Origin: Promethearchaeota archaeon
Lineage (GTDB): Archaea; Asgardarchaeota; Lokiarchaeia; Sigyniarchaeales; SOKP01
DNA length: 33,403 nt
NCBI GenBank assembly: GCA_019894975.1
Contig: JAGXNO010000040.1
Coordinates: 1-33,403 of the forward strand
Reading direction: 5' to 3'
A model generated the notes under the pieces. The model saw nothing but the letters and a program-made list of their open reading frames with translations. It had not been told where the DNA came from and searched no databases. This document shows positions 33,054 to 33,403 of the stretch, in pieces. Numbering within the stretch: the stretch's first letter is position 1; every line of letters starts with the position of its first letter. A program made the translations under genes and the position numbers.

Positions 33054-33061
33054 TTTATATA
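33054..33061 (+). promoter_or_regulatory. putative TATA box for the histone gene
   Basis: TTTATATA ends about 70 nt upstream of the ATG. A GGAGG RBS lies at 33121-33125. Confidence 0.5.
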
Positions 33062-33132
33062 ATAGAAATGTGTAGTTATAATTAATTACCATCTAAATAA
33101 TAATCCTATAAAATTAAAGTGGAGGAATAAAA

Positions 33133-33403
33133 ATGGCTAAAAAGAAAGCTCCTGCAAAAGCTCCTGCAAAGAAAGGTGATAGTTATATCGCCAAAAAGGT
33201 TTCAAACCTCTTGAAATCTGGGTATGCGCCTATCCGCAGGTTGATGAAAAAGGAAGGGGCTGATCTAGTCGCGGCTGAAGTAAATTAGGTAGTGTCCTAA
33301 TTACGGTTAAAGCGCTAGATAAGCTCATAGGCTTCCTAGAGGGTTCGGCTGCAAAGGCTACCAAGGAAGCAATCAATGTCTGCAAAGCAGATAAGCGTAA
33401 GAG
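33133..33403 (+). CDS. archaeal histone with an N-terminal tail, split into three exons (33133-33195, 33226-33278, 33311->33403); 3'-partial and not in the ORF track
   Basis: Joined exons give MAKKKAPAKAPAKKGDSYIAKAPIRRLMKKEGADLVAAEALDKLIGFLEGSAAKATKEAINVCKADKRK..., matching alpha1-L1-alpha2-L2 of the HMf-type histone fold. Confidence 0.9.
33196..33225 (+). other. putative 30-nt BHB/BHL-type intron 1 (in frame, no stop)
   Basis: Central helix GCCA/GGGU (3 pairs plus A.G), bulges AAA and AUG, and a 9-bp intron stem AGGUUUCAA/UUGAAAUCU. Standard cut positions give IAK|APIRR. Confidence 0.72.
33279..33310 (+). other. putative 32-nt canonical BHB intron 2 (frame-shifting, contains stops)
   Basis: Exon stem AUCUAG(U)CGC/GCGCUAGAU, central helix GGCU/GGUU, bulges GAA and AAA, and intron stem GUA(A)AUUAGG/CCUAAUUAC. 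Standard cut positions give GCU GA|A GCG CUA (AEAL). Confidence 0.88.

What the first reader, a model, noticed from the sequence alone, without database searches (positions are those of the whole stretch)
33263..33320. Canonical bulge-helix-bulge intron interrupting an Asgard histone gene (tRNA-type splicing of an mRNA)
Seen: the histone frame stops at TAG 33286-33288 after ...GADLVAAEVN, while helix alpha2 (ALDKLIGFLEGSAAKATKEAINVCKADKRK) continues in another frame. The intervening RNA folds as a full helix-bulge-helix-bulge-helix. The exon stem is 33263-33272/33312-33320 (9 bp, one bulged U). The 4-bp central helix is GGCU 33273-33276 with GGUU 33305-33308 (one G-C, three G.U). The 3-nt bulges are GAA (33277-33279) and AAA (33309-33311), and the intron hairpin is 33280-33304. 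Known: archaeal splicing endonuclease EndA cuts after the second base of each bulge and RtcB ligates; the classic mRNA case is crenarchaeal cbf5. Applying that rule removes exactly 33279-33310 (32 nt) and gives GCU-GAA-GCG-CUA, restoring both the frame and the histone spacing. Inference: this histone needs endonuclease-mediated mRNA splicing to be expressed, and gene callers would miss it. I know of no described histone example but cannot search the literature.
Basis: partly seen in the sequence, partly recalled or inferred. Interest (0 to 1): 0.96.

Follow-up and report, generated by a model that had tools for sequence, protein, structure and literature searches.

The report
tRNA-type mini-intron splitting Asgard histone gene
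The gene for a lysine-tailed histone of an uncultured Loki-type (Asgard) archaeon is broken by a 32-base hairpin insert shaped like the introns that archaea cut out of tRNAs, so its mRNA very probably has to be cut and rejoined by the tRNA-splicing enzymes before the histone can be made, which in print is documented for only one archaeal coding sequence (cbf5).

Summary
ORF 33133-33288 ends at TAG, and the rest of the histone continues in another frame. The region folds (z -4.4) into an exon-exon helix and an intron hairpin, with two 3-nt bulges across a weak 4-bp G.U helix.

Cutting after the second base of each bulge removes 33279-33310. That restores ...GADLVAA-E-ALDKL..., which is uninterrupted in 19 aligned congeners, 21 metagenome loci and 71 of 74 named Promethearchaeota loci. 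Only this species has an insert at this site (1 of 54 genomes of the genus). A second assembly carries the same insert and completes the gene to the conserved C-terminus.

New points:
- A second private 30-nt in-frame hairpin insert (33196-33225) sits in the same register.
- Two other species carry BHB-register inserts at other sites of this histone.
- Five other genes of this genome, including uL11 and dnaG, are split the same way.
- The dnaG insert persists in 15 congeners at 37, 39 or 40 nt.
- Two EndA subunit genes and RtcB are present.

No RNA data could be obtained, so splicing is inferred. This scan has noted similar histone introns in other Asgard genomes.

Verdict: a real, recently gained BHB mRNA intron (about 0.78).

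The parts
33121..33125 (+). Shine-Dalgarno GGAGG, 7 nt upstream of the ATG
   Evidence: Read. It is conserved in all aligned orthologues. The 100 nt around it are 97% identical to G002, although the CDS is only about 78% identical.
33133..33195 (+). Exon 1a: the lysine-rich N-terminal tail, MAKKKAPAKAPAKKGDSYIAK
   Evidence: It is collinear with the orthologue tails.
33196..33225 (+). Private 30-nt in-frame insert, a candidate second intron of the relaxed BHL type. If it is not removed it adds KVSNLLKSGY.
   Evidence: It is absent from all 19 aligned congeners and all 21 metagenome loci. In the canonical register (e1 33195, e2 33226) it has a central helix GCCA/GGGU with 3 of 4 pairs, bulges AAA and AUG, and a 9-bp intron hairpin 33197-33205/33211-33219. 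There is no adjacent exon helix. Excision gives exactly YIAK|APIRR. Shuffles reach H>=3 with h'>=9 in 0 of 50,000 trials, and H>=3 with h'>=3 in 0.5%. Forcing the central helix costs 6.6 kcal/mol.
33226..33278 (+). Exon 1b: helix alpha1 and loop L1 (APIRRLMKKEGADLVAA plus the first two bases of the Glu codon)
33263..33272 (+). 5' strand of the exon-exon helix h. U33269 is bulged. The MFE extends the helix outward to 33257-33261.
   Evidence: All 9 possible pairs are formed here, against 5-9 (median 7; only 1 of 40 reaches 9) at the same codons in orthologues.
33273..33276 (+). 5' strand of the central 4-bp helix H (GGCU, exonic)
   Evidence: It forms 4 of 4 pairs in the canonical register, against 0-3 in twelve slid registers.
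33277..33279 (+). 5' bulge GAA. The predicted cut is after A33278.
   Evidence: for the sequence. The cleavage rule comes from PMC2738675.
33279..33310 (+). 32-nt intron, containing the premature TAG at 33286-33288
   Evidence: It is absent from all orthologues. It is present in a second assembly. No other copy exists in the genome.
33280..33304 (+). Intron hairpin h': 9 bp with one bulged A and a 6-nt loop
33305..33308 (+). 3' strand of the central helix H (GGUU, intronic)
33309..33311 (+). 3' bulge AAA. The predicted cut is after A33310.
   Evidence: The same AAA 3' bulge occurs in the uL11, JAMM, dnaG and Rab inserts of this genome.
33312..33320 (+). 3' strand of the exon-exon helix h. The MFE extends it to 33322-33326.
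33311..33403 (+). Exon 2: helix alpha2 onward, cut off by the contig end. It continues on L025 to ...DKRKRVTAADIRAATR, a stop codon and a T-rich tract.
   Evidence: Pfam PF00808 positions 27-64 of 65 match.

Best explanation
The gene encodes an HLoB-type N-terminally tailed histone of a Promethearchaeota (Loki-type Asgard) archaeon. This species has recently gained a 32-nt bulge-helix-bulge intron in it.

How it most likely works:
1. In the pre-mRNA, coding sequence on the two sides of the insert pairs: 33263-33272 with 33312-33320. This is helped by the palindromic peptide D-L-V-A-A-E-A-L-D.
2. The insert forms its own hairpin (33280-33304).
3. Exonic GGCU pairs with intronic GGUU. This presents two 3-nt bulges, GAA and AAA, on opposite strands 4 bp apart.
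4. The two-subunit (alpha-beta)2 splicing endonuclease EndA cuts after A33278 and after A33310.
5. RtcB joins the exons to give ...GCU GAA GCG..., and probably circularises the intron.
6. The spliced mRNA encodes a histone collinear with more than 100 orthologues. Unspliced mRNA would yield only a 51-aa fragment ending at UAG 33286.

Shown here: the structure, its register, the restoration of the frame, the absence of the insert from orthologues, the presence of the enzymes, and sister introns elsewhere.

Inferred: the cleavage and ligation themselves.

A second private 30-nt insert (33196-33225) is probably a second, relaxed (bulge-helix-loop type) intron. About even odds.
For: 1. Anatomy and chance. 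All BHB elements are at the stated coordinates. Fold z is -4.42. The central helix has 4 of 4 pairs only in the canonical register. Shuffled inserts match in 0.08% of trials. The BHB conformer lies 1.1 kcal/mol above the MFE.

2. The exact product. The published rule (PMC2738675) gives ...GADLVAAEALDKL... The frame then runs to the conserved ...RKRVTAADIRAATR and stop on L025. With both inserts removed, the 81-aa protein is collinear with 40 orthologues.

3. Orthologues lack the insert. This holds for 19 of 19 aligned congeners and 21 of 21 metagenome loci. It also holds for 71 of 74 named genome loci. An exact-pattern search found the uninterrupted junction in 44 of 53 other genomes of the genus and 77 of 134 of the family. 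Only G000 of 54 genus genomes has a 20-50-nt gap there.

4. It is not an assembly error. An independent 67-kb MEGAHIT contig, differing at 3 of 3271 bases, carries both inserts.

5. The gene is under selection. Against orthologues there are 29-37 synonymous and only 4-8 non-synonymous codon differences in 65 codons. The promoter and 5' end are 97% identical to G002. It is the only copy of this histone type in the genome.

6. Machinery. There are two separate EndA-domain ORFs of 202 and 200 aa and RtcB. Asgard EndA is published as (alpha-beta)2 with the broad-specificity L1 loop (PMC5829648).

7. The same class occurs elsewhere in this genome, defined without reference to structure. The halves of Rab, activase, uL11 and JAMM match consecutive parts of single Pfam families. 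At the frame-restoring cut, the central helix has 4, 3, 4, 4, 4 and 4 pairs out of 4 in the six genes, against about 1.5 in slid registers.

8. Persistence through speciation. The dnaG insert sits at the same codon in 15 of 30 congeneric loci at 37, 39 or 40 nt, with GGYC/GGCU and the bulges kept.

9. Recurrence in this histone. ABR04 (L153, 30 nt) and AMARA_1S (L155, 29 nt) carry inserts at two other positions. Each has a 4/4 central helix in the canonical register, and shuffles match in about 0.09%.
Against: - There is no RNA-level evidence of any kind.
- The intron is private to one species, so no covariation test is possible for it.
- The central helix has three G.U pairs and is not formed in the MFE.
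- The nearest orthologues are only 74-78% identical in DNA. An intact exon 2 therefore does not exclude a very recent inactivating insertion.
- The genome has five other histone paralogues, so loss of this one might be tolerated.
- My genome-wide structure-plus-ORF scans showed no enrichment over frame-shifted controls. The class is supported by individually verified cases, not by a census.
- The closest relative by dnaG (G064) has no assembled copy of this locus.
Confidence: 0.78

Rival explanations
1. This is a recent inactivating insertion. The histone copy is a young pseudogene, and the hairpin insert, whatever made it, is not removed. The BHB-like register is incidental, or a by-product of how such hairpins insert.
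For: The insert is private to one species. The nearest orthologues are only 74-78% identical, so a recent event would leave the exons intact. Five other histone paralogues could compensate. The central helix is weak and not in the MFE.
Against: Two independent private inserts in one 81-codon gene both fall in the BHB register, with excision restoring the orthologue sequence exactly. Shuffles match in 0.08% of trials for the 32-nt insert. For the 30-nt insert they match in 0 of 50,000, or in 0.5% when the intron helix only has to reach 3 bp. Essential single-copy-type genes of the same genome (uL11, dnaG) are broken in the same way and cannot all be dead. The dnaG insert has persisted across 15 species. 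There are no other lesions, the stop is intact, and the promoter is 97% conserved.
Confidence: 0.12
2. The insert is overcome during translation (a -1/+2 frameshift or ribosomal bypassing) rather than removed from the RNA.
For: The frame of exon 2 is open from 33278 (SKLGSVLITVK-ALDK...). A shift between 33278 and 33285 could therefore in principle read through, adding 11 residues.
Against: There is no slippery heptamer before TAG 33286. The product would carry an 11-residue insertion at the start of alpha2, which no orthologue has. The sister dnaG insert occurs at 37, 39 and 40 nt, which are different frame classes, so no single recoding mechanism fits it. The L153 insert is in frame but contains a TAG.
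Confidence: 0.03
3. This is an assembly or sequencing artefact, or a minor strain variant fixed by the assembler.
For: The G000 contig ends 93 nt after the insert. The MAG has 8.55% contamination, so a population bubble is conceivable.
Against: A second, longer contig from another assembly has both inserts and reads straight through the gene. A random artefact would not produce a nested hairpin in the BHB register. Similar inserts occur in MAGs deposited under separate accession sets.
Confidence: 0.03

Closest known systems
BHB intron of the cbf5 (pseudouridine synthase) pre-mRNA in Crenarchaeota (Watanabe 2002; Yoshinari 2006; Yokobori 2009, PMC2738675)
   Same: Both are short introns inside a protein-coding sequence. 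Both fold as a BHB or relaxed BHB, with cuts between the 2nd and 3rd bulge residues. In both, the host has a hetero-oligomeric broad-specificity EndA, and the intron is patchily gained and lost among relatives.
   Different: The host gene (a histone) and the phylum (Promethearchaeota/Asgard) differ. This intron is private to one species, whereas the cbf5 intron is shared by orders. There may be two introns in one 81-codon gene. The same genome has several other mRNA inserts of this kind. The cbf5 intron is verified by cDNA, and this one is not.
BHB intron in the 5' UTR of Haloferax volcanii HVO_1309 mRNA (PMC7714728)
   Same: It is an mRNA substrate of the archaeal splicing endonuclease outside tRNA and rRNA. 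That study states that only cbf5 had been reported before it.
   Different: It lies in the untranslated leader, so it does not interrupt a reading frame. The host is a euryarchaeon with a different EndA type. It has been verified in vivo and in vitro.
Archaeal pre-tRNA BHB introns, which are very frequent in Asgard tRNA genes (bioRxiv 10.64898/2026.10.13.758758; PMC5829648)
   Same: The motif, the presumed enzymes (EndA and RtcB) and the size range are the same. ARAGORN reports introns of 8-50 nt (one of 384 nt) in 13 of the 29 tRNA genes it finds here. The picture of repeated independent gains is also shared.
   Different: Here the host RNA is a translated mRNA. The exon helix is made of coding sequence rather than a tRNA stem. 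Excision must keep a reading frame and must compete with coupled translation.
HLoB N-terminally tailed histones of Lokiarchaeia (bioRxiv 10.64898/2026.07.02.735847)
   Same: Both have a lysine-rich tail, a single histone fold and a C-terminal RKRVTAAD... motif. The protein is described as among the most abundant in cultivated Loki strains.
   Different: That study does not mention introns. The gene here is interrupted.

Membership tests
Archaeal bulge-helix-bulge (EndA/RtcB-spliced) intron | Two 3-nt bulges on opposite strands, separated by a 4-bp helix | tested here: met
   The bulges are GAA 33277-79 and AAA 33309-11. The helix GGCU/GGUU has 4 of 4 pairs (1 G-C and 3 G.U). It is not in the MFE, but forcing it costs only 1.1 kcal/mol. 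Slid registers give 0-3 pairs.
Archaeal bulge-helix-bulge (EndA/RtcB-spliced) intron | Flanking helices h (exon) and h' (intron), as in the strict hBHBh' form | tested here: met
   The exon helix has 9 bp with one bulged U and extends outward. The intron hairpin has 9 bp. Both are in the MFE and the centroid.
Archaeal bulge-helix-bulge (EndA/RtcB-spliced) intron | Cleavage between the 2nd and 3rd bulge residues yields the functional RNA | tested here: met
   Removing 33279-33310 restores the frame and the peptide found in more than 100 orthologues, through to the conserved stop. The rule is from PMC2738675.
Archaeal bulge-helix-bulge (EndA/RtcB-spliced) intron | The host encodes a splicing endonuclease of suitable specificity and an RtcB ligase | tested here: met
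   PF01974 matches two separate ORFs (202 and 200 aa; 101 and 66 bits). PF01139 RtcB scores 563 bits. The Asgard (alpha-beta)2 type with the L1 loop is from PMC5829648. I did not check these ORFs for the L1 loop.
Archaeal bulge-helix-bulge (EndA/RtcB-spliced) intron | Excision shown at the RNA level (spliced cDNA or reads, circular intron, in vitro cleavage) | not testable with these tools
Archaeal bulge-helix-bulge (EndA/RtcB-spliced) intron | Structure conserved or covarying among relatives that carry the intron | tested here: inconclusive
   This intron is private to one species, so there is nothing to compare. The sister dnaG intron keeps GGYC/GGCU and its bulges in 15 species despite length changes. 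All 15 intron-bearing loci have GGY at the Gly codon that pairs, against 1 of 15 intron-less loci, but these form one clade.
Archaeal histone (PF00808, HMf type), tailed HLoB class | A single histone fold (alpha1-L1-alpha2-L2-alpha3) recognised by the family model | tested here: met
   Exon 2 alone matches PF00808 positions 27-64 of 65 (20.9 bits, E 4e-4). An intact orthologue scores 39.2 bits over positions 5-64 against a cut-off of 21.4. The spliced product aligns with orthologues without gaps.
Archaeal histone (PF00808, HMf type), tailed HLoB class | A lysine-rich disordered N-terminal tail preceding the fold | tested here: met
   MAKKKAPAKAPAKKGDSYIAK precedes alpha1. The class is described in bioRxiv 10.64898/2026.07.02.735847.

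The most novel reading that the evidence does not exclude
Both private inserts are functional introns gained very recently in one species. Together with the independent inserts at other sites of the same histone in ABR04 and AMARA_1S, and the split uL11, dnaG, Rab, JAMM and activase genes, they would show that Loki-type Asgard archaea are actively accumulating endonuclease-spliced introns in protein-coding genes. That would include one of their most abundant chromatin proteins. [quoted passage not shown]
Probability: 0.4. Interest if true: 0.9.

Novelty: new member of a known kind. Interest (0 to 1): 0.8.

Why it matters
In the papers I could search, only one archaeal coding sequence (crenarchaeal cbf5) and one 5' UTR (Haloferax HVO_1309) are documented as mRNA substrates of the tRNA-splicing endonuclease.

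A BHB intron in a tailed histone would extend protein-gene splicing to the lineage nearest to eukaryotes. HLoB-type tailed histones are reported among the most abundant proteins of cultivated Lokiarchaeia.

It would also show intron gain on the time scale of a single species. The insert is absent from all other 53 genomes of the genus.

Practically, gene callers output a 51-aa fragment here. Histone inventories, proteomic databases and pseudogene counts for these MAGs are therefore wrong wherever such inserts occur.

The case is directly testable by RT-PCR, by an in vitro EndA assay and by looking for the junction peptide.

Tried and rejected

2. Genome-wide structure-only census. A strict hBHBh' scan gave 29,653 hits and a relaxed scan with an AAA 3' bulge gave 168,952 hits. 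I combined each with an ORF-fusion test. Neither showed any excess over cut sites shifted by 1-2 nt. The background comes from adjacent same-strand genes and from AT-richness. The test is uninformative, and it is not evidence against the class. Of the six verified cases, the strict scan caught only the histone.

3. Multi-copy element: blastn-short found no other copy of either insert in the genome. The inserts are therefore not a recognisable MITE or repeat family.

4. Rfam: nothing reached threshold. There was only a sub-threshold CRISPR-DR35 match over the first insert (19.6 against 35 bits, E 0.33), which I treat as chance.

5. Closest relative: G064 (90% identical at dnaG) has no assembled match to this locus. 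The age of the intron could not be narrowed.

6. Frameshift or bypass, and assembly artefact: considered and given low odds (see the rival explanations).

7. My first regex for counting intact orthologues was too strict. I repeated the count with a simpler criterion.

8. Complex prediction and structure prediction were not used.

Full report
**What is in the sequence.** The window is an entire contig (G000:C110), and it ends inside the gene of interest. A GGAGG box at 33121-33125 precedes ATG 33133. The ORF reads a lysine-rich tail, then ...APIRRLMKKEGADLVAAEVN, and stops at TAG 33286-33288. From 33312 another frame reads ALDKLIGFLEGSAAKATKEAINVCKADKRK up to the contig end. An independent 67-kb MEGAHIT contig from ENA (L025) differs from the window at 3 of 3271 overlapping bases and has the identical gene. 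It continues the second frame to ...DKRKRVTAADIRAATR, a stop codon and a T-rich tract. The public gene call on that contig is the truncated 51-aa ORF.

**The fold.** The 74 nt at 33255-33328 fold at -27.6 kcal/mol. Shuffles give -16.0 +/- 2.6, so z is -4.42, and none of 200 shuffles folds as well. The MFE contains the exon-exon helix (33263-33272 with 33312-33320, U33269 bulged, extended outward) and the intron hairpin (33280-33304). It leaves GGCU-GAA and GGUU-AAA as a 7x7 internal loop. Closing the 4-bp helix GGCU/GGUU (one G-C and three G.U pairs) costs only 1.1 kcal/mol. It converts the loop into two 3-nt bulges on opposite strands, which is the hBHBh' motif. In the canonical register the central helix has 4 of 4 pairs. 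In twelve slid registers it has 0-3. Shuffled inserts at the same site reach a 4/4 central helix with an intron helix of at least 4 bp in 0.08% of 50,000 trials.

**The cut rule and the product.** The cbf5 study states that the predicted cleavage sites lie between the second and third residues of each bulge, and it confirmed the borders with cDNA (PMC2738675). Applied here, the rule removes 33279-33310 (32 nt) and joins GCU GA|A GCG. The frame is restored, and the peptide reads ...GADLVAAEALDKL...

**Orthologues.**
- The locus is syntenic across the genus, and the DNA search matched in all 24 congeners sampled. In the 19 orthologues I aligned, the gene is uninterrupted and reads exactly that peptide.
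- A degenerate pattern for the uninterrupted junction matches 44 of 53 other genomes of the genus and 77 of 134 of the family.
- The same pattern with a 20-50-nt gap matches only G000 among 54 genus genomes.
- One non-matching genome that I inspected (G043) is uninterrupted with slightly different residues.
- All 21 metagenome loci are uninterrupted.
- So are 71 of 74 loci from named Promethearchaeota/Promethearchaeia MAGs.
- An intact orthologue scores 39.2 bits on PF00808. Exon 2 alone matches positions 27-64 of 65.
- The protein belongs to the tailed HLoB class, described as among the most abundant proteins of cultivated Lokiarchaeia (bioRxiv 10.64898/2026.07.02.735847).

The DNA alignment shows another private insertion, 33196-33225. 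It is 30 nt, in frame and free of stops, and it would add KVSNLLKSGY between the tail and alpha1. In the same canonical register (exon ends at 33195, next exon starts at 33226) it has:
- a 9-bp hairpin immediately after a 3-nt AAA bulge;
- a central helix GCCA/GGGU with 3 of 4 pairs;
- a 3' AUG bulge;
- no adjacent exon helix.

Excision gives exactly the orthologous YIAK|APIRR. Shuffles reach this in 0 of 50,000 trials, or 0.5% if only 3 bp of intron helix are required. Forming the central helix costs 6.6 kcal/mol because local hairpins compete with it. I read it as a probable relaxed (HBh'/BHL) intron, at about even odds. With both inserts removed, the 81-aa product is collinear with all 40 orthologues compared.

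**Is the gene alive?**
- It is the only copy of this histone type in the genome. The five other paralogues are of different types and are uninterrupted.
- Against 40 orthologues, DNA identity is 74-78%. There are 29-37 synonymous and only 4-8 non-synonymous codon differences in 65 codons. Apart from the two inserts there are no indels.
- The 100 nt spanning the promoter, SD and start are 97% identical to G002, although the locus overall is about 77% identical.
- The exon helix forms 9 of 9 possible pairs here, against 5-9 (median 7; 1 of 40 reaches 9) at the same codons in orthologues. Much of that pairing comes from the palindromic peptide DLVAAEALD, so the site was predisposed to form a helix.
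- None of this dates the insertion, because no relative closer than about 78% at this locus is available. G064, the closest at dnaG, has no assembled copy.

**Machinery.** The genome has two separate ORFs with the EndA catalytic-domain family (202 and 200 aa) and RtcB. Asgard archaea are published as having the (alpha-beta)2 endonuclease with the L1 loop that gives broad specificity (PMC5829648). This is the same enzyme class linked to cbf5 pre-mRNA splicing.

**Context in the same genome.** Earlier notes of this scan pointed to other interrupted genes. I re-examined five of them without using structure to define them.
- Six-frame motif searches and Pfam show that the two halves of a Rab-like GTPase match consecutive parts of one family (Ras 1-54 and 57-161).
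- The same is true of an activase (BcrAD_BadFG 1-135 and 133-271).
- For uL11, the second half matches L11_N 17-58 plus the C-terminal domain. For a JAMM protein, the first half matches JAB 5-97.
- dnaG is split inside AIFGQ|TEGLL.
- At the cut sites that restore these motifs, the central helix has 4, 3, 4, 4, 4 and 4 pairs of 4 (histone, uL11, JAMM, dnaG, Rab, activase). Slid registers average about 1.5.
- The 3' bulge is AAA in five of the six.
- uL11 and dnaG can hardly be pseudogenes, so the organism must remove such inserts.

**Persistence.** The dnaG insert is at the same codon in 15 of 30 congeneric loci and absent from the other 15. Its length is 37, 39 or 40 nt, which are different frame classes, while both exons stay conserved. 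The helix GGYC/GGCU and the A-rich bulges are retained. The Gly codon whose third base pairs is GGY in all 15 intron-bearing loci and in only 1 of 15 intron-less loci, although this is one clade. That pattern fits excision from the RNA. It does not fit frameshifting or read-through.

**Recurrence in this histone.** Two of the three discontinuous genome loci carry inserts at other positions near the C-terminus.
- ABR04 (L153) has 30 nt with an in-frame TAG, central helix GAGA/UCUU, and bulges AAU and AAA.
- AMARA_1S (L155) has 29 nt, central helix GCGU/GCGU, and bulges AAA and AGA.

Among the excisions that give the same product, exactly one in each genome has a 4/4 central helix plus an intron helix of at least 4 bp in the canonical register. 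Shuffles match in about 0.09%, and the MFE itself forms the helix. The third locus, L160, diverges after ALDRLI and looks truncated or rearranged. Notes of this scan report further histone mini-introns in at least a dozen other Asgard genomes. One of them appears to be the ABR04 case, judging by its quoted peptide and central helix, which I found independently. I did not check the others.

**What I could not show.** No sequencing runs could be queried, so there is no spliced read, no circular intron and no check of raw DNA reads. My structure-only genome scans gave no enrichment over shifted controls. Neither insert has another copy in the genome, and Rfam finds nothing above threshold.

**Literature.** Six full-text searches found no report of BHB introns in Asgard protein-coding genes or in histone genes. 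The recent census of Asgard tRNA introns does not mention mRNAs. The Haloferax EndA study states that cbf5 was the only mRNA example before its own 5'-UTR case.

**Verdict.** This is most likely a recently gained BHB intron that EndA and RtcB must remove for the tailed histone to be made (about 0.78). The main rival is a very young pseudogene (about 0.12). The kind is known from cbf5. The host gene, the lineage, the likely second intron and the recurrence at several sites of one small gene are new in print.

Noticed in passing
window 33196-33225: A second private 30-nt insert lies in the same histone gene. It is in frame, has no stop, forms a 9-bp hairpin and sits in the BHB register with a 3/4 central helix. 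If it is not spliced it would give a 91-aa isoform carrying KVSNLLKSGY before alpha1.
   Followed up: yes
L153:751-800 (JAHQWJ010000083.1, isolate ABR04) and L155:698-745 (SDNY01000134.1, isolate AMARA_1S): The same tailed histone in two other Promethearchaeota MAGs is interrupted at two different C-terminal positions, by 30-nt and 29-nt inserts with a 4/4 central helix in the canonical BHB register.
   Followed up: yes
G000 C44:47173-47207 (uL11), C120:71353-71383 (JAMM), C87:33420-33456 (dnaG), C89:25372-25403 (Rab-like GTPase), C22:42270-42299 (activase): Five other protein-coding genes of this genome are split by 30-37-nt inserts. Excision by the BHB cut rule restores conserved motifs or consecutive Pfam coordinates.
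   Followed up: yes
L036-L065 (dnaG loci of 30 congeners): The dnaG insert is present in 15 congeners and absent from 15, with lengths of 37, 39 or 40 nt. The pairing Gly codon is GGY in all intron-bearing copies but GGR in 14 of 15 intron-less copies.
   Followed up: partly
window 33273-33279 vs 33305-33311; L155:706-712 vs 735-741; dnaG junctions in L036-L047: In three of the nine inserts, the 5' half-site (central-helix strand plus bulge) and the 3' half-site are near-identical 7-nt direct repeats: GGCTGAA/GGTTAAA, GCGTAAA/GCGTAGA and GGCCAAA/GGCTAAA. This could be a trace of a 7-bp target duplication at a quasi-palindromic 4-mer. It could also simply follow from self-complementary helices with A-rich bulges.
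   Followed up: no
G000 whole genome: ARAGORN finds only 29 tRNA genes, 13 of them with introns, in a genome that is 95% complete. This suggests that many tRNA genes are too interrupted to be recognised, in line with the recent Asgard tRNA-intron preprint.
   Followed up: no
window 33060-33159 vs G002:C6:208611-208710: The promoter, 5' UTR and first codons of the histone are 97% identical between two species whose flanking DNA and histone CDS are only about 77-78% identical. That points to an unusually constrained expression signal.
   Followed up: no
L160:601-760 (JARRLT010000398.1): One orthologue diverges completely after ...ALDRLI and runs into unrelated sequence. It is a truncated or rearranged histone copy, or an assembly chimera.
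   Followed up: no
window 33199-33234: A sub-threshold Rfam match to CRISPR-DR35 (19.6 bits against a gathering score of 35, E 0.33) overlaps the first insert's hairpin. It is probably chance.
   Followed up: no
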